A stretch of 63,127 nt of DNA, counting the filler, from Conidiobolus incongruus B7586 (lineage: Eukaryota), in the NCBI GenBank assembly GCA_000697335.1. It is 9 parts of 9 records of this genome, joined end to end, with 100 filler letters (N's around TTAATTAATTAA, not from the genome) between each part and the next. Parts side by side here need not be neighbours in the genome. Positions count along the whole stretch, not along the records: positions 1 to 24,766 come from JNEM01006007.1; 8 more parts are not named here. One strand, 5' to 3'. Under the pieces are notes generated by a model. It did no database searches. It was given only the letters and a program-made list of their open reading frames with translations, and was not told the origin of the DNA. Positions 1 through 63,127 of this stretch are shown here, in pieces; position 1 is the stretch's first letter, and each line of letters starts with the position of its first letter. Position numbers and translations under genes: made by a program.

Positions 1-1
1 T

Positions 2-1021
2 TTTCTGTGGATTCGATAGCATTTCTTTGAGCATTCCTTTAATCTTATTGATGATGGGAATTAATTTGGTATTATATGATCCATCAGGAGAGGAATAGTA
101 CTTTTTGAAGTAGTTTTCTATAGCTGCAATATAGTCCCCAAGGTTTCGATTGGATACAAATGCCAATGCATCTATTAAACTCTTTTCATCATCATCTCTC
201 TTACCAGTTATGCCGGGCTGGAAATAAGCTGACGGTTTATTGGGATCAGGTGATGACAGCCGATTTAGTTCGTTGAAGAGAGTCTTATAACGCGTAACAA
301 TAGTGGGATCTTTGAGATTTATATCTGGAGCTTGAAGCAAACTAATTGCTTCATTGTATGGCGTATAAAGCACAGAGTCTATTGTGCCATCTCTATTCAA
401 GAAATACTGATTTAAGTATCGAGTGATAAAATCAACCACCAAATTCAGATTCTCTTCATCAACCGACTGGATAGCATATAAAACATTCTGCTCGTCAGTT
501 TGCTGATTACCAGTCAAAGTCAATTGGATACTTGAAGAAAAATTCAGCTTATCTTTTGCAAGTGATTCCAATTGGGTGAGATAGGCTTGGATTTGAGTGG
601 GAGTTGATGAAAGATTTGCGTCACAGTCCCTGGAGTTTAAAAAGTCAAACAGCTGGCCAATAACACTGGATATGTCCGGTCTGTATGTGCCGTCTTGGTT
701 AGCAAAGTGCCGATACACGAACAAATTAATCAAATCAATCACTTGTTTTTTCGACTCTGGCCTCATTGAATTTATAACCTGCAAAACATTATTTTTATCC
801 GATTCATAATTCTGTCTAATGAATGAGGAAGTTTGCGAACGTGATGCTAATACTCTTGGTTGGTCCAGAGCAATAGTATGAACACAAACTTCACAATTGT
901 CTATAAAATTAAGCGAATTACTGGATTCTGTAACCGTATTGAGCTGAGACTGAGGATTGGCTCCAATGCCCAGCACTTGGATTAAAGTCACTATAAATAT
1001 GCTCTGTGACCACTTCTTCAT
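2..1021 (-). CDS. Secreted ~105-aa tandem-repeat protein, N-terminal part (runs off window start)
   Basis: Hand translation from ATG at 1021 gives 340 open codons to the window edge: MKKWSQSIFIVTLIQVLGIGANP (signal-peptide-like), then about 3 repeats such as QPGITGKRDDDEKSLIDALAFVSNRNLGDYIAAIENYFKKYYSSPDGSYNTKLIP that match the repeats of 59075-61494. Absent from the ORF track because it has no stop in the window. Confidence 0.85.
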   Translation of the reverse strand, partial: MKKWSQSIFIVTLIQVLGIGANPQSQLNTVTESSNSLNFIDNCEVCVHTIALDQPRVLASRSQTSSFIRQNYESDKNNVLQVINSMRPESKKQVIDLINLFVYRHFANQDGTYRPDISSVIGQLFDFLNSRDCDANLSSTPTQIQAYLTQLESLAKDKLNFSSSIQLTLTGNQQTDEQNVLYAIQSVDEENLNLVVDFITRYLNQYFLNRDGTIDSVLYTPYNEAISLLQAPDINLKDPTIVTRYKTLFNELNRLSSPDPNKPSAYFQPGITGKRDDDEKSLIDALAFVSNRNLGDYIAAIENYFKKYYSSPDGSYNTKLIPIINKIKGMLKEMLSNPQK

Positions 1022-1867
1022 ATTAAACTATATAGAAACAAAGCCTAGTACCAGAATAAGCTTTGAGAAAAAGAAACATAAAATTGACATTACTAAGAGC
1101 AATACTTTGAATATAATAGCAAGTGGCTGAGTTGGAAAAGTGAAACTCATTGAAAATTCAAATAGCCAAGGTCAACAGAAAGAGTTTGAATTTAATAATG
1201 TTTCAAATATAATTTGTTTATATTAAAGAATTTTTTCCAATTAGTAGTCCCATTTGAATATATAGATATCTCAATATTAACTAATAAAGTAATTATTGAA
1301 TAATTAGATTATTATTGCTACATTATTTAATGAAATATCTAATCAATAATATTGTTTAAGATATTTGTATTTAAATGCCAGATCATTAGGATATAAGTTT
1401 TTTCAATCAAAGAATTGGATAAAAATTTATTATAATAATCTCAATTGAATTATTGATTATATAATCAACTTGAGAGTATATTTAATTATATTTTAAAGGA
1501 TATGATCTATATACTTCATTTTTTGTGATTCTATATTGCATAAAATATAATTCATTATCAAAATTTAATTATTTGTTTGGTTTATAATCATTAAAATGGC
1601 AAAAATTCAAAGTTTTAGTTATTATCGTTTCAGAATTGTATGGCTCAGCTTGTTTTAAATAATTAAATTTATAAAGAATAAATTATAAAAATAAATTTTT
1701 GTTAATGTATTATATGGAAATTAAAAATAAGTTACAATTTTTTCAAATTAGAAATTAAAAACCTATACTCACAAATGATTAAAAATGAAATACTGAAAAC
1801 TATATAATACATGTCCATAAATAAGGAAACAGTTAAAATGGATTAAATATTTTGTAGTAAAAATTAT

Positions 1868-2413
1868 TTAAAGATATTTTTCAATACTCTTGAGATCAGT
1901 GATGGTCAAACTGGTGTTATCAGGTTCAACTTCAAGAGCTGTAACTTTTCCATTTTCTAAAACCATGGCAAAACGCTTAGAACGAATACCCCCAAGAGCG
2001 GCAACTTCAAAATCCAAGTTTAACTTTTTGATAAATTCAGCAGTGGGATCAGCTAATAAGGTAACTTTGTTTTCAGCGCTAAGATGATCTTGAAAAGCTT
2101 TTAAGACAAAAGCATCGTTAACAGATACACAGGCAATTTCTTCAACCCCTTTGGATTTGAGAGTTTCATATTGTGCGATATAACCTGGTAAATGTCTGGA
2201 AGAGCAGACTGGAGTAAATGCTCCTGGGATTCCAATAAGAATAGCTTTCTTGAATTTTTTAAAATGCTCCAAAGCATTAATGGGAGTGGCTGGGGAATTG
2301 TGATGTAAATCAACGGAAGGAAGTTGATCACCTACCTTAATGAAGGAGGCAGCAGGGGCATGAAATCCTCTAACATTAGACAGTTTGAGATATCTGTATA
2401 AATTCAATTTCAT
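1868..2413 (-). CDS. Peroxiredoxin-5 / AHP1-like redoxin with probable mitochondrial presequence
   Basis: PGAFTPVCSSRHLPGY peroxidatic motif, VSVNDAFV and RSKRFAM. Likely start MKLNLYRYLKLSNVRGFH at 2413. Intronless. Confidence 0.93.
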   Translation of the reverse strand: MKLNLYRYLKLSNVRGFHAPAASFIKVGDQLPSVDLHHNSPATPINALEHFKKFKKAILIGIPGAFTPVCSSRHLPGYIAQYETLKSKGVEEIACVSVNDAFVLKAFQDHLSAENKVTLLADPTAEFIKKLNLDFEVAALGGIRSKRFAMVLENGKVTALEVEPDNTSLTITDLKSIEKYL

Positions 2414-3129
2414 TTTATCTAATAAAATAGAATGATCAAATGATGAAATCATTTACTTTAAAGTATTAATTATAATTTGTGGGAAATTCAGGCGATTTTA
2501 AAAACTCATTTACGTAAATAATCCTCTCTTTTGCAGAACCAATATGAAAACTGGATTTTTAATATAGTTAAATTGTATTAGTATCAATTCAGTTTACTTG
2601 ATTTGTAATGCAGTCATAATGATATCAAATTAAAAATATCTGACATATCATTTCTATGAGTATTCAAATATAAACCCAAAATAATGAGGAGAGTGACAAT
2701 CGTTTTGGAAAATCATGCCTTTTAGTATTCTGAAGTGTGATTGGTTATTCATTCGATAGAGCATGATCTGCTAAAAATTCAAGATGTTTGAGAAGACCAA
2801 ATACTATTACAAGCCATTATAATTTAGTCTCATGAAACAACAGAATATTAATTCCTTGCTATGAACTCTTGCCCTTACAAGTAAATGAATATTTGTCACC
2901 TGATTTTTCTTAGTATAAATAGACCACTGAGTTTACTCCAATCTATTTAACTTTCTATTTAAAGGCGTTTACAATCCTCATTATCACTTGCTTAATTTGT
3001 AGCTGGATTATAATTGATTTCAAACCTCCCATAATTAATTACTAAATTAAGCTTATTGAGTGATTTCATATATTAGAACTGTAATTGTCCATTTAGACCT
3101 TTGGAGTAAATTTATTTGTTTAATTTGAT

Positions 3130-12471: not shown

Positions 12472-13467
12472 CTAATGATGAAGATTTAAGTGTTCTAGTT
12501 TAACAATATTACAATTGTCAACTTCGTAATGATAATCTTCCACTTCTACTTTAATCAAATTGCAAGACCAAATGCGACTCCGTAAGACACACCCCAAATC
12601 ACAATGCTTCTGAGGATCTTTCCATCCAGCTTTGTAGTAAGTCCAATCTTCTTCAATCTCAAACAGAGGATTGATTGAACCATTTGAGAGATCTGGGTGA
12701 TTCAATGGCGCCCATAACCAGTGTGAAATGGTTTGAATAGGATAATCAGGATGGATTTTAGGTGTATCTGATTTAGGCAATTGTAAAGAACTGGGAGGCG
12801 AGTCTGGAAGAGATAGAGGATTTGGCTGTATTATGGAAAAGTGGGGCAATTCTTGGTTATCAGCAACAGTGTTCGTCCATCCATTCCACGCACTCCATTT
12901 TTGTCTCTCTATTACTGAGACTTTAACAACTTCAGTTACTTTTGGAATTGTATCAGGTAGTGGTATTTCAAACAATTTGGATGCTTCAGGACATGGGGAT
13001 CCCAAAGTAACTTCAGAGTCTACATCTGATACATTGTCTTCTGAATTATTTTCAATGTAAAAAGTTTCAACAGGGTTTTGATAAACATTTTCCGAAGATT
13101 TAGGAGATTGATTATATGCCACCAAGTCGTATGATTCAATGAAAGATGCGACAAGCAAAGCTAATGGGGTATAGTTTGGGAAGTATTTTAAAGTCAAAAA
13201 AATTCCACCCCATTCAAATATGATTTTGGTTATATTGGCTGAGTTGGAAAAAGATAACAATAATATAAAAATCACTCCAAAATGCTGGTCTTTGGAAATT
13301 TGGTTCGATATGGTCCAATTAGAGAAACCTAAAGCATGATAATAGATAATAAAGAGAACTGAGCCATAAATGAACTGAATCAATAGACTATCTAAATTTT
13401 GAAACCGCGAGATTTGCTTTGTATTGACTTTGGGTGTATCAGTTTTTAAACTATCCTTTAAGCTCAT
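12472..13467 (-). CDS. Membrane protein with C-terminal DysF-like motifs (Pex23/Pex24/Pex30-family-like), paralog A, 331 aa
   Basis: N-terminal hydrophobic segments, then VIERQKWSAWNGWT and EDWTYYKAGWKDP...RSRIW, which resemble the DysF ENQR..W..GW and GW.Y....W..P......RRRRW motifs. Confidence 0.6.
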   Translation of the reverse strand: MSLKDSLKTDTPKVNTKQISRFQNLDSLLIQFIYGSVLFIIYYHALGFSNWTISNQISKDQHFGVIFILLLSFSNSANITKIIFEWGGIFLTLKYFPNYTPLALLVASFIESYDLVAYNQSPKSSENVYQNPVETFYIENNSEDNVSDVDSEVTLGSPCPEASKLFEIPLPDTIPKVTEVVKVSVIERQKWSAWNGWTNTVADNQELPHFSIIQPNPLSLPDSPPSSLQLPKSDTPKIHPDYPIQTISHWLWAPLNHPDLSNGSINPLFEIEEDWTYYKAGWKDPQKHCDLGCVLRSRIWSCNLIKVEVEDYHYEVDNCNIVKLEHLNLHH

Positions 13468-15185: not shown

Positions 15186-16181
15186 CTAATGATGAAGATT
15201 TAAGTGTTCTAGTTTAACAATATTACAATTGTCAACTTCGTAATGATAATCTTCCACTTCTACTTTAATCAAATTGCAAGACCAAATGCGACTCCGTAAG
15301 ACACACCCCAAATCACAATGCTTCTGAGGATCTTTCCATCCAGCTTTGTAGTAAGTCCAATCTTCTTCAATCTCAAACAGAGGATTGATTGAACCATTTG
15401 AGAGATCTGGGTGATTCAATGGCGCCCATAACCAGTGTGAAATGGTTTGAATAGGATAATCAGGATGGATTTTAGGTGTATCTGATTTAGGCAACTGTAG
15501 AGCATCCGGAGAGATCCCTGGCAGGGATAGAGGGTTTGGTTCCATTATGGAAAACGTGGGAGGATCTTTATTAAACATTTGGTTTATCCATCCGGAGAAT
15601 GGATACCACCTCTGTCTCTCTATTACTGAGACTTTAATAACTTCAGTTACTTTTGGTATTGTATTTGGGATTGGTATTTCACTAAATTTAGTACTTTGAA
15701 GACTAGGAGATCCTAGAGTAAGCTCAGAATCTACATCTGATACATCGTCTATTATGTCATTTTCGGCAACTGATGTTTTGTTAGAAGATATATAAGTATT
15801 TTCAAAGCTTTTAGCGGACTGGTTACATATCAATATGTCGCAAGATTCCATGATAGACGCAATGAATAAAGCTATAGGAGCATGATTGGGGAAATATTTG
15901 ACAGTTAATAAAATTCCTCCCGAATTAAGTATAATATTGGACAAGTTTGTTGAGTTCAAATGATATAATAATATTATAAAAATGACTCCAAAATGATGTT
16001 CTCCTGTATTTAGACAAGTTGTGTTTATCCAGTATGAGGATCCCAAAGAATAATAAGAGATGATAAAATGAATAGAGACATAGATGAAATGTATCAAATA
16101 ATTCTCGATATTTCTTAAGTAGATATATTTGTTTTCTGTCATTTCAAGAGCTTCAGACCTTTTGCCCTCTTTCCAGCCCAT
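15186..16181 (-). CDS. DysF-like membrane protein, tandem paralog B, 331 aa
   Basis: Same architecture and length as 12472-13467 when started at MGWKEG (16181). The last 309 nt are identical to paralog A. Confidence 0.6.
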   Translation of the reverse strand: MGWKEGKRSEALEMTENKYIYLRNIENYLIHFIYVSIHFIISYYSLGSSYWINTTCLNTGEHHFGVIFIILLYHLNSTNLSNIILNSGGILLTVKYFPNHAPIALFIASIMESCDILICNQSAKSFENTYISSNKTSVAENDIIDDVSDVDSELTLGSPSLQSTKFSEIPIPNTIPKVTEVIKVSVIERQRWYPFSGWINQMFNKDPPTFSIMEPNPLSLPGISPDALQLPKSDTPKIHPDYPIQTISHWLWAPLNHPDLSNGSINPLFEIEEDWTYYKAGWKDPQKHCDLGCVLRSRIWSCNLIKVEVEDYHYEVDNCNIVKLEHLNLHH

Positions 16182-17039
16182 ATAAAATAGCTTAAACAAT
16201 AGACAAACGAAATTAGTTTTTAGAAAAAGGATTTTGGATTGAAAGAGAGCATCAATATTTAAACATTTGATGGTGAGATTTGGTTTGATATACATCTAGT
16301 CTAATTTCAACACCATCAGATTCTTAATTTCATTAGTCTCTTTTAAGACATGCACATGATGCAATTGATTAGAATTATCTATTGTAATTGGCCAATCACG
16401 TCAATTGCTTACCTATCAAAACAATTTCAATCGAAAATGAATGACGATTTTAATTACATTTTAATTGGAGACAAATTAATGTATAGCCATCATTATAAAC
16501 TTCAACTAGCTGTTTTCGTTTGTTTCATTTGTCGTGAAAATTAGAAATTCAATAGATAACTTCTTCATAATATTTTATTTATTATTTATTTAATCATAAA
16601 ATTTAAGTGCTAAATATTGAAAAAAAATTGTGAGACTTCATGATGAATTTGAGTTTTTATTAGAATTTTAAATGATTTTTTGATTCCAAATAGAGTTGAT
16701 ACAATTAATATTCAATATTCAGAGAAGTAGTTAAGGTGGATGGGAAATGAGAGGTGGAAAACTTGATAATATTTATTTATAGGTGATGAGAGTGAAAATT
16801 CGAAATCTTGTATTAAATCATTTGATTATAGCTTCGTATTAGTATAATGTATAACGTTGATGATGGGAATACTATTAAATTTGAATTTATTTTGCCTTAT
16901 TAAGGAGGATAGGAACCAATAGATTTAATTTAAAAATGATGAATATTCAGGTCATTGTGTTATAGTTGATGATTCAAAATCTAAAATTCGAATAAAATAA
17001 TTTAAGTGGTGAGGATATGAATTGTTTACTCATGATAAT

Positions 17040-24866: not shown

Positions 24867-25590
24867 TAACAATCACAGAGGCCGCGGCGGAAGTAATGAT
24901 GACGAAGTTAGTGTGAGTCAAACCGTAAAAGTAGATGAAGAAGACGGCCATGGGGGTCATCATGGAACCAATAATGATGAAGTTAGTGTGAGTCAAACCG
25001 TAAAAGTAGATGATGAGGATAACAATCACAGAGGCCGCGGCGGAAGTAATGATGACGAAGTTAGTGTGAGTCAAACCGTAAAAGTAGATGAAGAAGACGG
25101 CCATGGGGGTCATCATGGAACCAATAATGATGAAGTGACTGTTAGCCAAACCGTAAAAGTAGATGATGAGGATAACAATCACAGAGGCCGCGGCGGAAGT
25201 AATGATGACGAAGTTAGTGTGAGTCAAACCGTAAAAGTAGATGAAGAAGACGGCCATGGGGGTCATCATGGAACCAATAATGATGAAGTGACTGTTAGCC
25301 AAACCGTAAAAGTAGATGATGAGGATAACAATCACAGAGGCCGCGGCGGAAGTAATGATGACGAAGTTAGTGTGAGTCAAACCGTAAAAGTAGATGAAGA
25401 AGACGGCCATGGGGGTCATCATGGAACCAATAATGATGAAGTGACTGTTAGCCAAACCGTAAAAGTAGATGATGAGGATAACAATCACAGAGGCCGCGGC
25501 GGAAGTAATGATGACGAAGTTAGTGTGAGTCAAACCGTAAAAGTAGACGAAGAAGACGGCCATGGAGGTCATCATGGAGCCGATGATGAT
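24867..25590 (+). repeat. Coding minisatellite, 153-nt period (75+78 nt dimer), about 4.7 copies
   Basis: aacaatcacagaggccgcggcgg recurs at 24868, 25021, 25174, 25327 and 25480. Confidence 0.95.
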
Positions 25591-26058
25591 GAAGTAACCA
25601 TAAATCAAAAAGTAAAAATAGATGAAGAAAGTGGTCATGGAGGCCATTCCAGATCAGATGACGATGAAGATGAAGTTAGCGTAACCCAAAGCGTTAAAAT
25701 AGATGAAGAGGATAACAATCATCATGATGCCAAAGAAGATACTGTTATAAGTCAAAAAGTCAAAGTGGATGAAGAGGACCACAAACGGGGAAAACCAGAT
25801 CTGGTCGAAAGCCATAGTAAGCGACTTAATGAGGAGTTGAAAAAGATTGATGAAGAGCTAAAAGCTATGAGGCATTCCGGTTTGAAGACTAGGAAGAAAC
25901 CTAATAAGCATCGCGATTGCAACAAGTCACACCCTAAACATAAAAATAAGGAAGATATCGAAGTGAGTCAGAAAGTGAGTGCTGATGAGAATAATCATCA
26001 TGGAAATGCTTCTGATGAAGATGATACTTCCGTTAGCCAAAGTGTCAAAATTGAATAA
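24868..26058 (+). CDS. His/Asp/Gly-rich tandem-repeat protein, 5' truncated
   Basis: Frame is open from the contig start. Alternating units VSVSQTVKVDEEDGHGGHHGTNNDE and VTVSQTVKVDDEDNNHRGRGGSNDDE, with degenerate units near the C-terminus. Confidence 0.85.
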   Translation, partial: NNHRGRGGSNDDEVSVSQTVKVDEEDGHGGHHGTNNDEVSVSQTVKVDDEDNNHRGRGGSNDDEVSVSQTVKVDEEDGHGGHHGTNNDEVTVSQTVKVDDEDNNHRGRGGSNDDEVSVSQTVKVDEEDGHGGHHGTNNDEVTVSQTVKVDDEDNNHRGRGGSNDDEVSVSQTVKVDEEDGHGGHHGTNNDEVTVSQTVKVDDEDNNHRGRGGSNDDEVSVSQTVKVDEEDGHGGHHGADDDEVTINQKVKIDEESGHGGHSRSDDDEDEVSVTQSVKIDEEDNNHHDAKEDTVISQKVKVDEEDHKRGKPDLVESHSKRLNEELKKIDEELKAMRHSGLKTRKKPNKHRDCNKSHPKHKNKEDIEVSQKVSADENNHHGNASDEDDTSVSQSVKIE

Positions 26059-34652: not shown

Positions 34653-36078
34653 GTAGCAATATCACGCACTTGAGCAGTCAAATTGGAAGCCATTAAATTG
34701 ACATTATTGGTCAAATCTTTCCAAGTACCACCTACATCCTTAACAATGGCCTGACCTCCCAATTTTCCTTCTGTTCCTACTTCAAGAGATACACGAGTTA
34801 CTTCAGTAGCAAAAGTTTGTAATTGGTCAACCATAGTGTTAATGGTGTCTTTAAGGTCACGAATTTCACCTTTGACATCAACCGTTACTTTTTTAGACAA
34901 ATCACCACGAGCCACAGCTTTACTAACATCAGCAATATCACGTACTTGAGCAGTAAGATTAGAAGCCATTGTATTTACATTATCTGTTAATAATTTCCAG
35001 GTACCGCCGACACCTTCGACCTGAGCCTGTACACCTAACTTTCCTTCTGTACCGACTTCGTGAGCGACACGCGTAACTTCAGAAGCAAAAGAATTCAATT
35101 GGTCTACCATCGTGTTAAGAGTATTTTTCAAAATTAAGGTTTCTCCTTTGGCATTAATAGTGATCTTCTTACTCAAATCACCATTAGCGACAGCTGTACT
35201 GATCTCAGCAATGGCTCTGACTTGCTCTGAATGATTTGAGGACATTAGATTGACATTGTAAACCATTTGATACCAAGCTCCATGCATATCTTTCATATTG
35301 GCTAGAATACCTAATTTCCCTTCAGCACCAGTTTGACGCACAACATGATTGACTTCTGAGGTGAAACGTTCTAATTTACAGGCCATGGTATTCACAGCGG
35401 TTTTAAAATTCAGCAATGGTCCTTCTGAAACATCGCAATGTACTCTGCGTGAGAGATCCCCCTGCTCAATAGCCTTAACAACTTGGGTACACTCATCCAA
35501 GACATCAACCCATTGTTGACTAATTGGAGGCTCTTGAATTTTCTTTATTGTCGTTTTGCTATTAGAATCGGAATTTGAATTGGATGAAGAATCCGGTATC
35601 TTGATGGTACAAGAATTTTTGGTAATTTCCTTATTAGGATCATTGCAAGTATTATTGGAAAATAAAGTATGATTATTATTCTTCTATTTGATGATAAAAA
35701 GTATATTATTAGTCATGTTATTAGTCATATTATATACAATTTTTATATTGTAAATGAAAATTGGTTAGATATTTAATAAAATGATAAATATACTATCTGG
35801 TGAAATTAATAATATATGTATCAAAATGACAAGCATTTAAAGACGACTGTGAGCAATTTATTACGGATATTTAAATAACTTACCTTGTAATTTTCTAATT
35901 CTTCTTGAAGTTGTGTTTGTCTGGTCCAAATTTGATTTATTAGTCTATCAATGTGTTTGGTTTGTAGAGTGTGCTGGCCTTCAAAAACTGGGGGGAGTTG
36001 AATCGGTTTATGGAAATCGAGCTGAAAATTCACTATGAATTCCAATTGTCGCTCCACACAGTTCAAATAATCTATCAT
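34653..36078 (-). CDS. NIK1: Group III hybrid histidine kinase (NIK1/OS-1 type), N-terminal poly-HAMP part, 3' truncated
   Basis: Repeated ~92-aa HAMP units ([53 protein letters not shown]). The probable first exon starts at 36078 with an intron at about 35686-35883. Confidence 0.9.
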
Positions 36079-52820: not shown

Positions 52821-54221
52821 CAAAAACTATATATTATTAAATTATAATCAATTTAATGCTGTTATAAATATAATAATAAAAGATTACTGATATAATATAA
52901 AGGAAGACCTAATATAGAGATAGTGTGGCATAAAATATAGTAATATATTATGGGATATAATGTGAATATATAAACAAAGTTTAATTAAGCTTTAAATTAG
53001 GATAAGTCATTGATATATTAAAATTTATATTAGGTAGTATTAATACACTGTAATATTGATAGAACATAGTTTCAATTTTAAAAATAATGAAAAAAATAAA
53101 AAATAATAAGAATAAAGAAAAAAAACCTAATATATTAAATAGTTTAATACTTTTTATATAATTAATTTAACTATAAAAGTATAATTTAATTATATAATTT
53201 ATAATTAATTAAATTATAAAGAAATATATAAAAGAGTTTAAAAAACTAGTTTTTTAATATTTTTTTAATAAATTTCTTAAAAGAAACATACTCCTTAAAT
53301 TTTTACAAATAAGTATAATAAGTTAAGATATTCTTAATGTTTTTTAAGGTTTTTTATATAATTTATTTAATAAGATAACCTATTTAATTTATATAAAAAT
53401 AAAGCTTATTCTTAATAGATTTAAATTTAATTATATAATAAATATAATATTTTTCTTCTCTATCTTAAATAATAATTTAATCTAGTTTTAAAGCTTTTAA
53501 TTAATTAAGAAATATATTAAAATCTTTAAAATTAGGTTTGATTTTAGATATATAAAAGGTAAAGCTAATCTTTACAATTAAAAATAATTCTAAAATAATA
53601 TTTTCAAAATTTAAATCATCAGATTAAATCTTATAGGTATTATAATATAATAATAAATATTTTGGATTTAAACTAAATTTAAGTAAGATAAATTTAAAAG
53701 CAAATTATTCTAAGTATATAAACATATTAGTTTTATATTTAAAAAGATTTTTAAATAACTTAAAATCTTATTATTGATAATCTTTTAATTTTCTTTTAAG
53801 TTAAATTTAATAAGGGAGTTAATCTATTTAATATGAAATTAAAATTTAATAATATCTAAAGATAAGTTGATTTAAAGTTTTAAAACAATTATTAAATTAA
53901 GATATTTATTATAATTGATAAAATAAAAATTAAAACTTATTAATTTAATCAATAAAAATATCAAATAAATATTAAAGTTGGAAGATATAGGCATTTTAAT
54001 TTAAATGATTAATGTTAATATAAGTTTTAATCATTTACTTTAAGGTTTTAATAGTTTTTTCAATAAGTTTATTAATTTAATAGTGATTAATAGTAAACAT
54101 AACTAGATTAATCTTAAAGGAAAAAGTTAGTAACTTATAGAATTAAAAGTTAAATTATATATTTCTATTAAATACAATAGTTTATAAAATTTTATAATAG
54201 GTAAAAATATTAGGGAATAAT
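52821..54221 (-). mobile_element. Hypermutated Ty3/Gypsy LTR-retrotransposon relic (integrase core, GPF/Y module, probable chromodomain)
   Basis: Minus frame from 54220 reads TAT TAT AAA ATT TTA TAA ACT ATT GTA TTT AAT AGA AAT ATA TAA TTT, which back-transitions to HHGIPQTIVSDRDTQF. This is followed by MSTANHxQTDGLAERTI with D-35-E spacing and, near 53535-53565, SPTFHVSKIKP. Confidence 0.8.
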
Positions 54222-54321
54222 NNNNNNNNNNNNNNNNNNNNNNNNNNNNNNNNNNNNNNNNNNNNTTAATTAATTAANNNNNNNNNNNNNNNNNNNNNNN
54301 NNNNNNNNNNNNNNNNNNNNN

Positions 54322-55804
54322 TTATTTAATTAAAATCTATTATACTTATTAATAATATATAATATTAAATGATAATATTTAGTTATTAATTGGTTAAAAT
54401 ATAAATCTTTAAATTTTACCTAATATAAGTTATAAATTTATAGGTTTTTGATAATAGAACAAATTAAAACTTAGTATATCTATCTTTAATTTTTCTAACT
54501 TCTTAAAGTTTATAAGGTATAGAATCAATTAACTTCTTATATTAAAAAAGGTTAATTTTGTTTTCTATTTTTTAAACATATTTTTAAAGATAATTTGAAT
54601 TTTTTATTAAAAGGAAAACTTTAATAACTTTTTTTAACTATTCCTAAAGATATTTAATTAGGTTAAAATTAAAAAATTAAAGAAGCTACTTTATAATTAT
54701 TATCTTGTTATTTTTAAGTTATTTAGTAATAGAAGCTGTAGTATAAAAAAAGGTATTAATTTACTAAAAAATAATATTAGATTTGTTTAACCTATACTAT
54801 TTAATATTTTTTTTAATTTATTATTTAAAATATTTTAATATATCTTAATATTAATTCCTTTATTAACTTTATAAAAATATCTTATACTTAAAGATAATAT
54901 ATATCCTTAAATAATAATTAACCTATTATTATATTTTTAGATAAAATTAACATAATAGTTATAAAGTAATTCTATATCTTTTCTGAAATATCTAGTTTTT
55001 TTTCAAATTTACTAAAATATATTTTTGTTTTTTTAAATTAAATAACCTTACTCTAATTAGTTTTAATTTAATATTAATAGTGATATTTAAACTCTTGCTT
55101 AACTTTATAATAAGATTTCTTTAGTTGGGGGTGTTATTTCTTAAAATATAAGTGATATCTATATTAATATAAATTATATATAATAATATTAGTATTAACT
55201 AATATTCTTATATAATTTTATAATTCTGGTTATATTTCTATAATAATATTATATTTACCTATATTAATTAACCTATAGATATATTTCTTATTATATTTAT
55301 TTATAATCTTCACACACTTAAGTTTAAGTTTAAATATGTTTTTATTACTATTATTAATAACTTTTACTATAGTAAACTAGTTAAAATTAATAATTCTAGC
55401 AATATTATAAGTTAATTTATTTTTTTTATAAAGTTAATTAATACACAAGTAAATTTTTTTAGAGAGGGATTTAAGTATAATGATATTAATAAAGAAATTA
55501 GTATATTTATAAAATATTATATAAAATAATAACAAAGAGAGAAGAAAGATATAGTTATATATTGTTAAATATATCCTTTTATCTCAAAAACCTGTAAATT
55601 TATAACTCATCTTAATTAAATATTAGTGGTTAATTTTTTTGCTAATAGTTTACTAAATATATCTAAATATATTTATCTATTATCAAATAATATATCTTAA
55701 TTATATATTATAGTTTGAAATAATTTAATATATATAATTGTTTTAGTTATTAATTAATATATATATATTTTTGATTTTAAAACTTACTTTTATAAGTTAG
55801 TATA
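54322..55804 (-). mobile_element. Hypermutated Tc1/mariner DD34E transposon, copy A (transposase relic 54464-55478; left TIR ~55767-55802 then TA)
   Basis: Colinear with 61595-63127 and the reverse complement of 55910-57355. Differences are overwhelmingly C/T and G/A. Confidence 0.9.
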
Positions 55805-55909
55805 ATAATNNNNNNNNNNNNNNNNNNNNNNNNNNNNNNNNNNNNNNNNNNNNTTAATTAATTAANNNNNNNNNNNNNNNNNNNNNNNNNNNNNNNNNNN
55901 NNNNNNNNN

Positions 55910-57355
55910 AATAAATATATTTAAATATATATAGTAAACTATTAGCAAAAATATTAACCCTTAATATTTAACTAAAGTGAGTTATAAATTTACAAGTTTT
56001 TAAGATAAAGGGATATATTTAACAATATATAACCATATTTTTTTTCTCTCTTTGTTATTATTATATATTATATTTTATAAATATACTAAATTTTTTTATT
56101 AATATTATTATACCTAAATCCCTCTCTAAAAAAATCTATTTGTATATTAATTAACTTTATAAAAAAAATAAATTAACTTGTGATATTGTTAGAATTACTA
56201 GTGTTAGCTAGTTTACTATAGTTAAAATTGTTAAGAATAACAATAAAGAAATATTTAAACTTAAACTTAAGCATGATAAAATTATAGATAAATATAATAA
56301 GAAGTATATTTATAAGTTAGTTAATATAGGTAAATATAATACTACTCTAGAAATACAACAGGAACTATAAAACTATATAGGAATATTAGTTAGCATTAAT
56401 ATTATTATATGTGTTTTATATTAATATAGATACCATTTATACTTTAAAACAAACACTTTTAATTAAAGAAATCCCATTATAAAATTAAATAAGAAGTTAA
56501 ATGTCATTATTAATATTGAATTAAAACTAATTAGAGTAAGGTTATTTAGTTTAATAAAACAAAAATATATTTTAGTAGATTTAATAAAAAACTAGATGCT
56601 TTAAAAAAAATACAAAATTACTTTGTGACTATCATGTTAATTTTACCCAAAAGTATAATAATAGGTTAATTATTATTTAAGAATATATATTGTTTTTAGG
56701 TATAAGGTATTTTTATAAAGTTAATAAAGGAATTAATATTGAGATATACTAAAATATTTTAAACAATGAATTAAAATAAACCATTGAATAATATAGGTTA
56801 AATAAATCTAATATTATTTTCTAGTAAGATAATACCTTTTGTTATACTATAGCTTTTACTACCAAATAGCTTAAAAATAACAAGATAATAGTTATAAAGT
56901 GGTTTTTTTAATCTTTTAACTTTAATTTAATTAAATACCTTTAAGATTAATTAAAAAAAACTATTAAAGTTTTCCCTATAGCTAAAAATTTAAATCAACT
57001 TTAAAAATATATTTAAGAAATATAGAATAAGATTAACCTTTTTTAGTATAAGAGGTTAATTGATTCTATATCCTATAAACTTAAAGAAGTTAGAAAAACT
57101 AAAGATAGATACACTATGTTTTAATTTTTTTTATTACCAAAAAACTATAAATTTATAACTCACCCTAGGTAAAATTTAAAGGTTTATATTTTAGTCAATT
57201 AATAGCTAAATATCATTATTTAATGATATATATAATTAATAAATATAATAGATTTTAATTATTTAATTTAGATTTATTTCATTAAATATTAATTAAGCTA
57301 TTAGTAAAAATATAAGTGTTTTTGATTTTATAACTCACTTTTGCAGGTTAGTGTA
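55910..57355 (+). mobile_element. Hypermutated Tc1/mariner DD34E transposon, copy B (transposase relic 56110-57124; right TIR ~57316-57353 then TA)
   Basis: Back-transition gives DWSKVIWSDETKI...KHGGGSIIIWGC...FQQDNAPCHT...KWPPQSPDLNPIEHLW...DSMP.RLKEVRKTKGGYT, with 34 residues between the second D and the E. The end reads ...taactcacttttgcaggttagtg|TA. Confidence 0.92.
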
Positions 57356-58613
57356 TAAAAGTTTTTAAAACTATTATAAATAGTTAATTTATTTTTAAAA
57401 ATTCTAAAAAGGTAATTTAATATGTTAANNNNNNNNNNNNNNNNNNNNNNNNNNNNNNNNNNNNNNNNNNNNTTAATTAATTAANNNNNNNNNNNNNNNN
57501 NNNNNNNNNNNNNNNNNNNNNNNNNNNNCTGTAGAGTAATATTACAAATTAATGGATCAAAAATTTGGTGGAAAAATCATTATATATTATAGGAATGATG
57601 TAGGCACTTGAAAGTAATAATTCTGTTACATATGTTTATTCAATAATTGGATTTACAAATAAATATCCTGATTGTTCTTACAATCATTGTGTTTACTATA
57701 AATGGTACCAACAATTATATTAGAATATCTAAATTTCTTTCAGGTTACTGATTTTGTGTAAATTTAGAATATTTTTTGATACTGTACAAATTAGAAAGAT
57801 CAGTCGTTTTCTTAATAAGTCTTTGAATATGTATATTAGACAATCAACTACTGCATTTGATACATCATCAAAAAATTAAGAAAATGATATATTAAAGCCA
57901 ACCTTGATACATATAAAATTTGTCCTATATGCTTTTCAAAATAGAACTTACTTTCATTTGGATATATTCAATTAATTTTATTTTAGGCTTAGTTTATAAT
58001 TGGAACAATACTAATCAAAAAATATAATTAATAACAAATGTTTTCTAATAGGTTTAGATTAAACCATTTTTAGGGGATAACCTTTTTCCATTAGCTTCTA
58101 AAATTAGTTATAACAATTTTAAGCCAGATCAAAATATTCCAAACTTCTTCAATTGAAATATTTTCTTAGGTATATATTGATATATTTTAGAGTATTGAAT
58201 TTTAAATTTCATGCTTATCAATCATTTTAATTAATATATACCATGTAATAAAATTTATAACGTTTGAATATAATATAATAGTTGCTTTTACAAATTCTTG
58301 ATAATTGAATCATGGCTGTTATAATTTTATTCTGGTTTGAAAACAAAAAAAAACAAGATTTTAGGTCAAAATTCATGGAAAAAGTTGTCCTCTCAAAAAT
58401 GGTTTTTATTATTAAAATAAAATTTGTGATAATTTTTTTCTAAAACAAGTAATATTTAGATGTATACATCATTATAAATATATCCAGTATATAATTTGAA
58501 AAATACTATTAAAGATGCATTTCAAATATGAATATCATAATAAAAACTTCAATATATACATGTTATTAATTTGTAAAATATAATATTAAATATTTATTAA
58601 ATAATACTAAAAT

Positions 58614-58973
58614 TTAGCGATAGAATTTCTTGTTTATCAATCGCAATAATAAATTAACATTCAGTTTGACTTCACCATCAAACAGAGCCATGATACGAAC
58701 ATTGTCAAATTGGTACTGGAGTAGTTCTTCTAGTTCGAGCTCTGTTGTTGCTCCAGGCAAAGGTACTTTCAAATAATGCGCTGTGATTTGAAATTTACCT
58801 ATTTCCTTGCAGCTAATGATCACATCAATATGAGGGTACTGTTTGGGAGTAAATTCATTCATTGACACTAATACTCCTTTGTTGTGCAAGCGTTCAGCAG
58901 TGTATAAGAATGATCCAAATTTAGCAGAATGACCCATATTGGAAAGCTGCTTGCACTGGAAGTAATTCTTGGT
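58614..58973 (-). CDS. IQGAP (Iqg1/Rng2-like) RasGAP C-terminal fragment, 5' truncated
   Basis: KFGSFLYTAERLHNKGVL...LEELLQYQFDNV..MALFDGEVKLNVNLLLRLINKKFY is the typical IQGAP C-terminus. Confidence 0.88.
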   Translation of the reverse strand, partial: TKNYFQCKQLSNMGHSAKFGSFLYTAERLHNKGVLVSMNEFTPKQYPHIDVIISCKEIGKFQITAHYLKVPLPGATTELELEELLQYQFDNVRIMALFDGEVKLNVNLLLRLINKKFYR

Positions 58974-59074
58974 NNNNNNNNNNNNNNNNNNNNNNNNNNN
59001 NNNNNNNNNNNNNNNNNTTAATTAATTAANNNNNNNNNNNNNNNNNNNNNNNNNNNNNNNNNNNNNNNNNNNNG

Positions 59075-61494
59075 GAAGCCTACTCTGAGTTAAGCAGACT
59101 ATTAAGTTATTACTATAAAACCTCGGGCGATGGAGCTGACATGAAGATTTTCCCACTTATAGCCAATACTTTGGAATTGCTCAAGGCTGATAAATTCGAT
59201 GGTAGCGCCCCTAATATAAGAGCTGAATTTGAAACTAAGTTCCATAAGCTGGACGAAGCTTTGAAGAAACTTGAAGAGACTGCTCCTAAAGCTCAGTTAT
59301 ACGAACACCCTCAGCTTACTACCAATTTCGAAAGTGACCTCAACAAATTGATTGAATCATTTAAAACAGTAACCAAAGACAACATAGATGAAGCCAGGAA
59401 ATTTATAAGACTCTTCTTAGTAACTTATGTAGGAGATCCAAATGGCAACTTCAATGTCCATATTGCGCCAGGAGCGGCAGAAATTACTAAGTTTGTATCT
59501 AGTGATCATTTCGATTTCCATAACCATGATGATTTGAACAAATTGTCGAATATGATTACCGAATTATACAAACTCTGGTCTCAAGGCTCGGATCAGAGTG
59601 CAAATTACTATCATGCACCCCGAGTGAGTGGGAACAGGGAAATAGATGCCAATGCACTTATCGAGTCATTTGCTAATGTAGATCGTGACAATAAGCAAGA
59701 TGCGATCAAGGCACTTGAAGCTTATCTCAAGCATCACTACAGCACTGATAAAAATGGCAGCTACAATCTTAAAATCTTCAAACTTGTTAGCGATTTGACC
59801 AATCTAGTGACAAAACCCGGATTTGATCTCAGTTCCAAGGAGAACCAAGCACAAATTTCATTATATTTCAGCCAATTGAATTTCCTTAAGGATGAATTGG
59901 ACAAGACTGGAAGCATCGAAAAAACTTGTAATTTACCCAAGATATCTGGTGATAAATCACAGGATAAAAAGGCTATTTCAGAACAGTTCCCCAAATTAGA
60001 CATTTCATGTAAGAAAGAAGCTGCCGAATTTATCGATAGTTTTGTCAATAATTACTATCATAATGACCAAAATACAATTGATTTCACCCTGATTCCTCTT
60101 ATTAGCAAGATAATGAGTAATATTGAAAGCAGTTCCTTTGATTTCCACAATCGTGAATCCATATTTGAAATTCTGGTCAAGTTGGACCAACTTGAGGATG
60201 CATTCAAGCAGGCCAGTAAGCATCACCAGAATGAACAACCATTCAATCCACCGCCAATCTCATATGATAGGAAGGAATTTATTCGAGAATTACTCGAATC
60301 TTTGAGACATGTCACGCCTGAGACCAAAGTTAGTGCCATCAATTATTTGATTAGCTTTACTAGACAATACTACAGTAGAAATGGAGGTGGTTTGGATCAT
60401 CATTATTTCGACATTATAAATGAACTCACCGAGTTACTAAAAGCGAAAGATTTCGATTTTAGCAATCCCATTTCTATATCCAAGATCAAAGAGATCTTCG
60501 ACAAATTAGAAGCGGTTGGAGAGTATTACAGCTCTGAAACAGAGGAGCATATCGAATACAAAGGTGTTGAAATTACCGGTGACATTCAATCCGATTTCGT
60601 CAGATTTATCGAAAGTTTGTACAATGTGAGCGAAGCTAATCGTCCTGAGATCAATAACTTTTTAATGCACTTTGTAGAATATTACTTTATTCCACCCGGT
60701 GAAAGGGATTACCCCAAAGAAATTTTCTCAATAGTTGTCGAACTGAAAAACCTCATCACTAGCCACGATTTCAACTATGTTACTAGAGAAAATCTTGAAA
60801 ATTTAAGACTGGTCTTCGAGAAGTTGATCATGACAAAAGAGGCTTTGGATCATCCTACAGAGGCTCCCAAATACTTCCTCCCTCCAACTCTGACCGGCAA
60901 TAAGGTAGAAGATGAGAAGCTCATGTTCGAATCACTTAGAGATGTGACTCTGTTCAACAAGCAACAGGCTGTTGAATTCATTAACTTTTACCTTAAGGTG
61001 CATTATGCTGACTCTAATGGAAACTTCCTCCCTAGTATCGCCAAACTTGTAAATGACTTATTATCCATGATCAGTGTACCTAGTTTTGATTTAGCTGATA
61101 CTAATGGAGCTAAAATGATCAGGTTATATTTGACTAAGATCGAGCAAGAGCTCAAGAGGATTCAAGACCAGAAAGCTAATCGACCTGGTTACAAAGAGCC
61201 CGAGCTTTCTGATAATCGACAGATCAATATGCAGCTCGTGATTGCCAGTTTCAAAACGGTCACCCCAGATACAAAGATAAAGGCGGTGAACTTTGTTAAC
61301 AAATATTTAACGGTGGTATATGGTGAACCCAACGGTTATTTCGATTTGGATCTCATCAAATATGTAAATGATGTGTTCGCTGTGGTTTCAGACCCTAACT
61401 TCGAATTCAATAGAGATTCAGATGTCCTTCGATTCCAAAAGCTCCTGCTCAAATTGGATGCCGAGTATGACAGAGTAAAAGCGCCAACGCCCAA
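59075..61494 (+). CDS. Large ~105-aa tandem helical-repeat protein, internal fragment truncated at both ends
   Basis: The whole 2.4-kb contig is one intronless open frame with about 7.5 diverged repeats starting PQLTTN, PRVSGN, PKISGD, PPISYD, VEITGD, PTLTGN and PELSDN. Confidence 0.9.
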
Positions 61495-61594
61495 NNNNNN
61501 NNNNNNNNNNNNNNNNNNNNNNNNNNNNNNNNNNNNNNTTAATTAATTAANNNNNNNNNNNNNNNNNNNNNNNNNNNNNNNNNNNNNNNNNNNN

Positions 61595-63127
61595 TATAAG
61601 TTATAAAATCAAAAACACTTATATTTTTACTAATAACTTGATTAATATTTAATAAAATAAACTTAAATTAAATAATTAAAATCTATTATATTTATTAATA
61701 ATATATATTATTATATAATGATATTTAGCTATTAATTGGTTAAAATATAAATACTTAAATTTTACCTAAGGTGAATCATAAATTTGTAGGTTTTTAGTGA
61801 TAAAAAAAAATTAAAACTTAGTGTATTTACCTTTAGCTTTTCTAACTTCTTTAAGTTTATAGGGTATAGAATCAATTAACTTCTTATATTAAAAATAGTT
61901 AATCTTGTTCTATACTTCTTAAATATATTTTTAAAGTTCATCTAAATTTTTTACTAGGGGGAAAGCTTTAATAACTTTTTTTAACTAATCTTAAAGATAT
62001 TTAATTAAGTTTAAGTTAAAAAATTAAAGAAGCTACTTTATAACTATTATCTTGTTATTTTTAAGCTATTTGGTAATAGAAGCTATAATATAATAAAAGG
62101 TATTATCTTACTAGAAAATAACATTAGATTTGTTTAACCTATATTATTCAATAGTTTTTTTCAATTTATTATTTAAAATACTTTAGTATATTTTAATATT
62201 AATTCCCCTATTAACTTTATAAAGATATTTTACACTTAAAAACAATATATATCCTTAAATAATAATTAACCTATTATTATACTTTTAGGTAAAATTAACA
62301 TGATAGTTATAAAATAGTTCTACATTTTTTTTAAAGTATCTAGCTTTTTTATTAAATTTACTAAAGTATATTTTTGTTTTATTAGATTAAATAACTTTAA
62401 TTAGTTTTAGTTTAATATTAATAATGACATTTAAACTCCCACCTAGTTTTATAATAGGATTTCTTTAATTAGGGGTGTTTTTTCTTAAAGTGTAAGTAGT
62501 ATCTATGTTAATATAAAATATATATAATAGTATTAGTGTTAACTAATATTCTTATATAGTTTTATAGTTTTTGTTGTATTTCTACAATAGTATTATATTT
62601 GCCTATATTAACTAACCTACAGATATACTTCTCATCATATTTATTTATAATTCTAACACACTTAAGTTTAAGTTTAAATGTGTTTTTATTGTTATTTTTA
62701 ACAACCCTAACTATAATAAACTAGCTAACACTAGTAATTCTAGCAATATCACAAGTTGATTTACTTTCTTTATAAAGTTAATTAATACACAAATAAATTT
62801 TTTTAGAGAGGGATTTAAGTATAATAATACTAATAAAAAAAATTTAATATATTTGTAAAATATTATATAAAATAATAATAAAGAGAGAAAAAAGATATAG
62901 TTATATATTGTTAAATATATCCCTTTATCTTAAAAACCCACAAATTTATAACTCACCTTAGTTAAATATTAAAGGTTAATATTTTTGCTAATAGTTTACT
63001 AAATATATCTAAATATATTTATTTATAGTTAAATAATATACTTTAATTATATATTATAATTTCAAGTAAATTAATATATACAATTGTTTTAGTTATTAAT
63101 TAAAATATATATATTTTTGATTTTATG
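61595..63127 (-). mobile_element. Hypermutated Tc1/mariner DD34E transposon, copy C (transposase relic 61811-62822), nearly full length
   Basis: Starts inside the right TIR (ttataaaatcaaaaacac) and ends inside the left TIR (tttttgattttatg). Colinear with copies A and B. Confidence 0.9.

What the first reader, a model, noticed from the sequence alone, without database searches (positions are those of the whole stretch)
2..1021. Hidden secreted protein missed by the ORF track, in the same repeat family as the 59-kb ORF
The minus strand encodes a signal-peptide-like N-terminus, a CxxC (NCEVC), then ~100-aa repeats: LTGNQQTDEQNVLYAIQSVDEENLNLVVDFITRYLNQYFLNRDGTID and ITGKRDDDEKSLIDALAFVSNRNLGDYIAAIENYFKKYYSSPDGSYN. 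These align motif by motif with the 59-kb repeats (e.g. LTGNKVEDEKLMFESLRDVTLFNKQQAVEFINFYLKVHYADSNGNF). Inference: either the 5' end of the same giant gene split across contigs, or a paralog. It suggests the family is secreted.
Basis: partly seen in the sequence, partly recalled or inferred. Interest (0 to 1): 0.72.

Follow-up and report, generated by a model that had tools for sequence, protein, structure and literature searches.

The report
Giant secreted four-helix-bundle chain proteins
This is the front end of a real gene of a Conidiobolus-like fungus, one of at least two related genes for very large, likely secreted proteins built from a long string of ~105-residue units predicted to fold as four-helix bundles; the family is undescribed and likely forms an extracellular fibre or coat.

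Summary
Window 2-1021 (minus strand) encodes the first 340 residues of a real gene: a hydrophobic signal-like N-terminus, a CxxC, an LxxR motif, then 2.7 repeats of about 102 residues. A profile built only from the 59-kb repeats scores it at 123.6 bits (best of 2000 shuffles 11.9). It is not hidden: it runs off the window edge, and a public contig continues 8.4 kb further. The 'same gene' idea is unlikely. A search of 1.84 billion representatives gave two relatives. ORF A shares its leader (33 of 61 residues) with Conidiobolus coronatus KXN71855.1 (partial, 19 repeats). The 59-kb piece instead matches, 8 of 8 repeats in order, a 3746-residue, 33-repeat protein (P0004) with another leader. So they are paralogs; their presence in one window comes from artificial contig joins. 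Each repeat is predicted to be a four-helix bundle (pLDDT 95) with loose linkers; no Pfam, PDB or Atlas match. No transmembrane or GPI-type tail in the full-length relative. Best guess (40%): a secreted, pro-domain-processed beads-on-a-string matrix or adhesion fibre. Expression and function are untested.

The parts
2..1021 (-). ORF A: first 340 codons of a giant repeat-protein gene; continues beyond window position 1
   Evidence: in-frame TAG 9 bases upstream of the ATG and Met1 aligns with Met1 of P0005; a contig of run X1 extends 8420 bases past position 1, one of X3 5453 bases; 12 of 16 listed allelic changes are at third codon positions, 10 of 16 silent
959..1021 (-). Predicted signal peptide, aa 1-21 (basic start, hydrophobic core aa 8-20); cleavage point inferred
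   Evidence: 12 of 21 residues identical in P0005
839..958 (-). Conserved leader / putative pro-domain, aa 22-61, ending in LxxR (LASR, aa 58-61, bases 839-850)
   Evidence: 21 of 40 residues identical in P0005; LxxR at the same place in P0005 and at aa 50-53 of P0004; pLDDT under 50 over aa 36-70
884..895 (-). CxxC (Cys43, Cys46) inside the leader
   Evidence: present in ORF A and P0005, absent from P0004's first 104 residues
530..835 (-). Repeat A1 (aa 63-164), predicted four-helix bundle
227..538 (-). Repeat A2 (aa 162-265), predicted four-helix bundle
5..235 (-). Repeat A3 (aa 263-339), cut by the window edge
59075..61494 (+). ORF B: internal 806-aa piece (7.7 repeats) of a second, paralogous gene; fills its contig, open at both ends; the ATG at 59141 is not a start
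   Evidence: matches P0004 aa 2085-2883 in register, 35% identity, 561 bits against 206 for the next register
58974..59073 (.). Artificial contig linker (N-TTAATTAATTAA-N) before ORF B; one of 8 in the window
61495..61594 (.). Artificial contig linker after ORF B
1868..2452 (-). Upstream neighbour: redoxin (peroxiredoxin-5 type); used only to place the organism
   Evidence: Pfam Redoxin E 7.6e-30; best of 698 hits is Neoconidiobolus thromboides, 56%

Best explanation
ORF A is the 5' end of one of at least two paralogous genes of a Conidiobolus-like fungus for giant proteins made of ~105-residue tandem repeats; the protein is likely secreted, likely loses a 60-residue leader at an LxxR site, is predicted to be a loose chain of four-helix bundles, and most likely works outside the cell as a long fibre of a surface coat or adhesive matrix. 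Shown: the gene, the repeats, the two relatives, the paralogy pattern, the conserved leader. Predicted: the fold of each unit and the lack of fixed packing between units. Inferred: entry into the secretory pathway; Kex2-type cleavage after aa 61, which would remove the CxxC or leave it as a disulfide-tethered or assembly-controlling piece; release without a membrane or GPI anchor; a contour length of order 130-200 nm for 33 units (my arithmetic from a 26-residue longest helix plus 13-16-residue linkers); the structural role itself.
For: Real coding gene: 12 of 16 listed allelic changes at third positions (p 0.0008), 10 of 16 silent against 4.9 expected (p 0.007). Relatives: only P0004 (3746 aa, 33 repeats, about 428 kDa) and P0005 = KXN71855.1 (2003 aa partial, 19 repeats) among 1.84 billion representatives. 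Signal-like N-terminus in 3 of 3 leaders, no transmembrane stretch, polar acidic C-terminus in P0004. LxxR just before repeat 1 in 3 of 3 leaders, whereas the four sequences hold only 11 LxxR in 6896 residues and ORF B none; LxxR after a disordered N-terminal stretch is the in-silico mark of Kex2-processed pro-domains in PMC8528282 (passages). Single repeat: four helices, pLDDT 95.3, pTM 0.86. Three repeats: units pLDDT about 76-90, linkers under 50, pTM 0.34. Repeats differ strongly within one protein (16-22% identity) yet keep their position between P0004 and ORF B (35%, 8 of 8), and their spacing is regular (mostly 100-108 aa): an old, fixed array whose length and order are kept, as in structural bundle chains (general knowledge). 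Conserved columns are core hydrophobics and turn residues (Pro, Thr/Ser, Asp, Asn, Gly, Phe), not a catalytic set.
Against: No expression, localisation or phenotype data. No SignalP run. Low pTM of the three-repeat model may come from an alignment of only 5 rows, some of them patchwork, so rigid packing is not excluded. ORF A's repeats are no closer to P0005's in register (16-23%) than background, so ORF A may be a third paralog and its repeats evolve fast, which fits a host-facing role as well. Known fungal surface adhesins are mostly Ser/Thr-rich and GPI-anchored (general knowledge); this family is neither. ORF A's own C-terminus was not seen, so its lack of an anchor is borrowed from P0004. 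LxxR enrichment was noticed after the fact and ORF A and P0005 are not independent.
Confidence: 0.4

Rival explanations
1. A secreted multi-unit carrier or sink: each bundle, or pair of bundles, binds a lipid or other hydrophobic ligand, as in nematode polyprotein allergens, fungal Mp1p/HsbA proteins or the cockroach Bla g 1 repeats (names recalled).
For: All-helical ~105-aa units in tandem with a signal-like N-terminus; diverged units could have different specificities; the organisms live on insect cuticle and haemolymph lipids (titles).
Against: No unit-by-unit cleavage motif: 0 LxxR and 1 KR in the 806 aa of ORF B. Core columns are mostly large residues (Phe, Tyr, Leu, Ile), which suggests a filled core. 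No Pfam hit above cut-off in 4 of 4 proteins.
Confidence: 0.2
2. A host-directed factor: a secreted repeat scaffold that binds insect or vertebrate proteins (immune evasion or decoy), comparable in logic to tandem helical WY/LWY effectors of oomycetes or albumin/antibody-binding helical repeats of bacteria (names recalled).
For: Leader far more conserved (54%) than the repeats behind it (16-23%) between ORF A and P0005, a pattern common in secreted weapons; LxxR pro-domains occur in about 30% of 120 plant-pathogen effectors (PMC8528282 passage); named relative is a broad-host pathogen (PMC12387763 passages).
Against: Size of over 200-430 kDa is far above typical fungal effectors; ORF B keeps 35% identity position by position with P0004; allelic changes in ORF A are mostly silent (10 of 16), not a sign of diversifying selection; no hit in the proteomes of other insect pathogens that the collection holds.
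Confidence: 0.17
3. A storage or reserve protein routed through the secretory pathway to vacuoles or spores and cut up on germination.
For: Very large, soluble-looking, acidic, no catalytic motif, pro-domain-like leader.
Against: Ordinary globular composition without Gln/Arg enrichment; position-specific conservation of repeats is not needed for storage.
Confidence: 0.1
4. ORF A and ORF B are two pieces of one gene split in the assembly.
For: Same repeat family; ORF B's contig is open at both ends; at least 8.4 kb of unseen DNA follows ORF A; similar codon GC (0.37 and 0.41 at third positions).
Against: In the one register shared by P0005 and P0004 (z 3.4), ORF B is 27-43% identical to P0004 but 11-28% to P0005, whereas ORF A is 12-17% identical to the P0004 repeats in its position and has P0005's leader. 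One gene would need a recombination between the two lineages. Co-occurrence in the window is due to artificial joins.
Confidence: 0.05

Closest known systems
KXN71855.1 / CONCODRAFT_5379, hypothetical protein, partial, Conidiobolus coronatus NRRL 28638 (P0005)
   Same: Leader aligns without gaps from Met1 (33 of 61 identical), same CxxC and LxxR, same repeats; best BLASTP match of ORF A (aa 1-310, 127 bits)
   Different: Repeats only 16-23% identical in register; annotated as hypothetical and partial; orthology not proven (synteny test failed because the C. coronatus redoxin was not among the 120 listed hits)
P0004 / P0006 (unnamed, 3746 aa, hypothetical)
   Same: Same repeat; ORF B matches aa 2085-2883 in order; signal-like N-terminus and LxxR before repeat 1
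   Different: Leader unrelated to ORF A's, no CxxC; about 930 extra N-terminal residues relative to P0005's register
Vinculin / alpha-catenin / talin-type chains of helical bundles
   Same: Tandem four-helix bundles; metavinculin 7ktt_A Z 8.5 (rmsd 16.4, 232 aligned) for the three-repeat model, Z 6.5 (rmsd 3.5, 89 aligned) for one repeat
   Different: Scores are within the range the tool gives for any helical bundle; 12% identity; those proteins are cytosolic, this one has a signal-like N-terminus. Analogy only
Nematode polyprotein allergens, Mp1p/HsbA and Bla g 1 lipid-binding helical repeats (recalled)
   Same: Secreted, all-helical, tandem units of 100-150 residues
   Different: No regular cleavage sites between units; no Pfam or structure match
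Kex2-processed pro-domain (K2PP) secreted proteins of fungi (PMC8528282)
   Same: Signal-like peptide, low-confidence leader, LxxR
   Different: Described members are small effectors of plant pathogens; this is a giant repeat protein of an early-diverging fungus; cleavage untested

Membership tests
Repeat family of ORF B / P0004 / P0005 (defined here) | Significant match to a profile built without ORF A | tested here: met
   123.6 bits, 3 domains; best of 2000 shuffles 11.9
Same gene as ORF B | Both pieces match one full-length relative in a consistent register | tested here: not met
   ORF B 35% to P0004 in register; ORF A 12-17% to the matching P0004 repeats and leader shared with P0005
Same gene as ORF B | Physical linkage on one contig or read | not testable with these tools
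   No genome held; no contig data obtained for ORF B; the 8.4 kb beyond position 1 could not be read
Classically secreted protein | N-terminal hydrophobic signal segment, no transmembrane helix | tested here: met
   Hydropathy only: 3 of 3 leaders 2.5-2.9 over 11 residues, 0 of 219 internal windows reach 2.52; best internal 19-mer 1.19
Classically secreted protein | SignalP call, expression, presence in the secretome | not testable with these tools
K2PP (Kex2-processed pro-domain) proteins | LxxR/KR/RR after a disordered N-terminal region | tested here: met
   LxxR at aa 58 (ORF A, P0005) and 50 (P0004); pLDDT under 50 at aa 36-70; criterion from PMC8528282 passage
K2PP (Kex2-processed pro-domain) proteins | Leader absent from the mature protein | not testable with these tools
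   Needs N-terminal sequencing
Nematode polyprotein allergen-type lipid carriers (recalled definition) | Basic cleavage motif between every unit | tested here: not met
   0 LxxR and 1 KR/RR over 7.7 units of ORF B; 6 LxxR over 33 units of P0004
HsbA / Mp1p / Bla g 1 / spectrin / WY-LWY repeat families | Pfam profile match above curated cut-off | tested here: not met
   0 of 4 proteins reach any Pfam cut-off at E up to 1
HsbA / Mp1p / Bla g 1 / spectrin / WY-LWY / vinculin-talin folds | Distinct structural match of the unit | tested here: inconclusive
   Foldseek PDB and viral: none at E 0.001; VIA best Z 7.6 (one repeat) and 9.0 (three repeats), generic bundles
GPI-anchored fungal adhesins (general knowledge) | Hydrophobic C-terminal GPI signal and Ser/Thr-rich stalk | tested here: not met
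   Tested on P0004 only: C-terminus polar and acidic; Ser+Thr 12-16% in ORFs A and B. ORF A's own C-terminus unseen
Thioredoxin-type CxxC redox proteins | CxxC at the start of a helix in a thioredoxin fold | tested here: not met
   CxxC lies in a low-confidence coil before an all-helical array; no Pfam hit

The most novel reading that the evidence does not exclude
Conidiobolus-type fungi make a family of 200-430 kDa secreted chains of up to 33 or more four-helix bundles, an extracellular counterpart of talin/vinculin-like bundle strings, whose conserved CxxC-bearing pro-domain controls assembly in the secretory pathway; the chains form an extensible, unanchored glue or coat on spores or hyphal bodies, a type of fungal adhesin material unlike the Ser/Thr-rich GPI adhesins and hydrophobins.
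Probability: 0.2. Interest if true: 0.75.

Novelty: new variant of a known kind. Interest (0 to 1): 0.48.

Why it matters
Giant secreted proteins of tandem domains are a known kind, but this repeat has no Pfam family, no solved relative and only two database clusters, both unnamed or hypothetical. It gives a defined, well-folding ~105-residue domain and a two-subfamily architecture in a fungal group that infects insects and at times people and livestock, and whose surface and adhesive materials are little known (for the related Entomophthora the adhesive is described as undetermined in PMC8588673, passages; the family was not found in that genus). If the fibre or coat reading holds, it would supply a lineage-specific surface antigen and a new kind of fungal adhesive; if not, it remains a new domain family worth a Pfam entry. 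The 'hidden gene' and 'split giant gene' aspects that raised the first score are artefacts of windowing and contig joining.

Tried and rejected
Word-index homolog searches with ORF A (596-2000 aa) and ORF B (1412-4030 aa) found nothing; they are insensitive (P0004 was in range and was missed). No whole genome is held. No RNA holder listed: no evidence either way on expression. Metagenome contig scan with P0006: 49 pattern matches, 0 confirmed, so no neighbourhood for the relatives. Synteny test through the redoxin neighbour failed: no C. coronatus entry among the 120 listed of 698 hits. PDB sequence search: 0 hits for ORF B at E 10; profile A2 best E 0.012 to designed four-helix bundles. Foldseek PDB and viral libraries: none at E 0.001; VIA lists showed only generic bundles and did not list HsbA/Mp1p, Bla g 1, spectrin or WY proteins, which does not exclude them. 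ESM Atlas: no usable hit for ORF B or one repeat. Earlier findings of this scan: none. Alignment A1 of overlapping stretches was useless and dropped. Literature: no paper holds KXN71855, CONCODRAFT_5379 or CONCODRAFT; searches gave no description of such a protein in their listings; supplements of PMC9391592 (11 files, one cut) and PMC12387763 (1 file) do not mention it; subscription papers and bioRxiv supplements were not searched. Considered and rejected: frame artefact or antisense shadow (silent-site bias in this frame); a redox CxxC enzyme; coronatin toxins (recalled as 14-36 kDa proteins; no sequence compared, so only the size argues against); viral or bacterial origin (no such hit). No complex prediction was sent, as no binding claim is made.

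Full report
What the window is. The window is not one stretch of chromosome: nine segments are joined by eight identical 100-base linkers (N-TTAATTAATTAA-N). The genes are eukaryotic and fungal in type (redoxin, tetraspanin, MutS, peptidase M16, zuotin). The redoxin next to the finding has its best of 698 hits in Neoconidiobolus thromboides (56%) and the only named relative of the repeat protein is from Conidiobolus coronatus, so the organism is most likely an entomophthoralean, Conidiobolus-like fungus. No whole genome is held.

The observation. ORF A (2..1021, minus) has 340 codons and no stop before the window edge; that is the only reason an ORF track would skip it. An in-frame stop lies 9 bases upstream of the ATG. 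In four public DNA runs of one sample, a contig of 8829 bases covers positions 1-409 with its last 409 bases, so at least 8420 bases follow beyond the window; I could not read them. The same runs show two haplotypes at about half depth each (18 differences in 252 bases at 380-631). Of the differences listed inside ORF A (16; the tool hid 48 further rows over the whole 2600 bases), 12 are at third codon positions (p 0.0008) and 10 are silent against 4.9 expected (p 0.007). The frame is therefore under purifying selection. ORF B (59075-61494, plus) fills a 2421-base contig and is open at both ends; its ATG at 59141 is internal.

The repeat match. A profile of seven ORF B repeats finds three domains in ORF A (total 123.6 bits, E 1.6e-40); 2000 shuffles reach at most 11.9 bits; no other of 789 six-frame segments exceeds 8 bits. 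Mean identity between A and B repeats is 18%, the same as between repeats within one protein (16-22%).

Relatives. phmmer with ORF B over 1.84 billion representatives gave 2 hits at E 0.001: P0004 (3746 aa, unnamed; near-identical member P0006, 'hypothetical protein') and P0005 (KXN71855.1, C. coronatus CONCODRAFT_5379, partial, 2003 aa). A control at the same library size shows that this search detects 17 of 17 two-repeat windows and 3 of 18 single repeats of P0005, and ORF A at E 8e-14. Proteins of N. thromboides, Entomophthora muscae, Basidiobolus and Syncephalis are in the collection, so the family seems confined to a narrow group, or is unannotated elsewhere; giant genes are easily missed in draft annotations. 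An iterated profile finds 33 repeats in P0004, 19 in P0005, 8 in ORF B and 3 in ORF A, mostly 100-108 residues apart.

One gene or two. ORF B matches P0004 aa 2085-2883 at 35% and 561 bits against 206 for the next register; 8 of 8 repeats choose consecutive P0004 repeats. ORF A matches P0005 from Met1: 33 of the first 61 residues are identical, including the CxxC and the LxxR. P0005 and P0004 share one weak ancestral register (z 3.4). In it, ORF B is 27-43% identical to P0004 and 11-28% to P0005; ORF A is 12-17% identical to the P0004 repeats it would correspond to. If A and B were one gene, A should resemble P0004 as B does; it does not, and P0004 has another leader without a CxxC. The simplest reading is two paralogs: a CxxC-leader type (ORF A, P0005) and a P0004 type (ORF B). 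Against full certainty: physical linkage was not tested, and ORF A's repeats are not measurably closer to P0005's than background (16-23%), so ORF A may be a further paralog of P0005.

Secretion and leader. In ORF A, P0005 and P0004 the most hydrophobic 11-residue stretch lies at aa 6-18 (2.5-2.9); 0 of 219 internal windows reach 2.52; there is no transmembrane-like 19-mer; P0004 ends in a polar acidic tail. All three leaders have an LxxR just before repeat 1, while the four sequences hold 11 LxxR in 6896 residues. PMC8528282 (passages) uses KR, RR or LxxR after a disorder-prone N-terminal stretch as the in-silico mark of Kex2-processed pro-domains. The model of ORF A gives pLDDT under 50 for aa 36-70. 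So the CxxC sits in a likely pro-domain. SignalP was not available, and there are no expression data.

Structure. One repeat, folded with an 11-row alignment of window repeats, gives four helices (13-24, 32-47, 56-69, 79-104), pLDDT 95.3, pTM 0.86. ORF A as a whole gives three confident units, low-confidence linkers and pTM 0.34: beads on a string, with the caveat of a 5-row alignment. Conserved columns are hydrophobic core and turn residues, with no catalytic-looking set. Pfam: no family above cut-off in 4 of 4 proteins. Foldseek: none at E 0.001 in PDB or viral libraries. VIA: best Z 7.6 (rmsd 3.4, 86 aligned; designed repeat protein BRIC2) for one unit and 9.0 (rmsd 15.8) for three, followed by vinculin, HPt, hemerythrin and other bundles, all in the range that the tool calls common for helical bundles. 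The fold class is ordinary; the sequence family is new.

How it likely works. Shown: gene, repeats, relatives, leader conservation, paralogy pattern. Predicted: fold, flexible linkers. Inferred: secretion, leader removal, no anchor, function. An old array of diverged units whose order is kept between species, with no enzyme motif, no regular cleavage sites and a calculated length of order 130-200 nm, fits best an extracellular structural or adhesive fibre (0.40). Rivals: multi-unit lipid carrier (0.20), host-directed binder (0.17), storage protein (0.10), one split gene (0.05, a separate question); the rest is unassigned.

Literature. Seen: passages of PMC8528282, PMC12387763 (1316 predicted secreted proteins, no mention of such a family in the passages), PMC8778642, PMC8588673; supplement searches of PMC9391592 and PMC12387763; search listings. 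None describes this protein. Names of nematode polyprotein allergens, Mp1p/HsbA, Bla g 1, WY/LWY, GPI adhesins and coronatin sizes are recalled, not from calls.

Verdict. New variant of a known kind; interest 0.48.

Noticed in passing
window 24868-26058 (+): ORF open at the 5' linker, made of alternating ~25-residue acidic repeats with a Val/Ser/Thr/Gln strand-like core and His/Gly- or Arg/Gly-rich spacers, near-identical at the DNA level; no Pfam hit. Could be a metal-binding or beta-solenoid surface protein.
   Followed up: partly
window 12472-13467 and 15186-16295 (-): Two tandem paralogs with weak Pex24p-like scores (22.3 and 25.4 bits, cut-off 26.8) whose last ~105 residues are identical while the fronts differ: recent gene conversion or an assembly collapse.
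   Followed up: no
window 52821-57428 and 61595-63127: Four short contigs of 13-16% G+C with raised TpA and depleted CpA/TpG, like repeats decayed by C-to-T mutation (RIP-like or methylation-driven), which would be notable in an early-diverging fungus.
   Followed up: partly
window 1-2600: Two haplotypes at about equal depth, differing by 18 of 252 bases at 380-631 and by 34 bases plus 8 gaps in 405 at 1049-1451: high heterozygosity in a group described as mostly haploid and multinucleate (PMC12387763 passage); it likely explains the fragmented assembly.
   Followed up: partly
window 34653-35500 (-): Fragment with tandem HAMP-like repeats resembling a group III hybrid histidine kinase (recalled resemblance, not searched), cut by a linker.
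   Followed up: no
window 58614-58937 (-): C-terminal fragment with a weak RasGAP_C score (22.8 bits, cut-off 26), cut by the linker before ORF B; unrelated to the repeat family.
   Followed up: partly
P0004 aa 369-587: A 220-residue stretch between repeats 3 and 4 that the profile does not call; by eye two decayed repeats plus an acidic Ser-rich linker.
   Followed up: no
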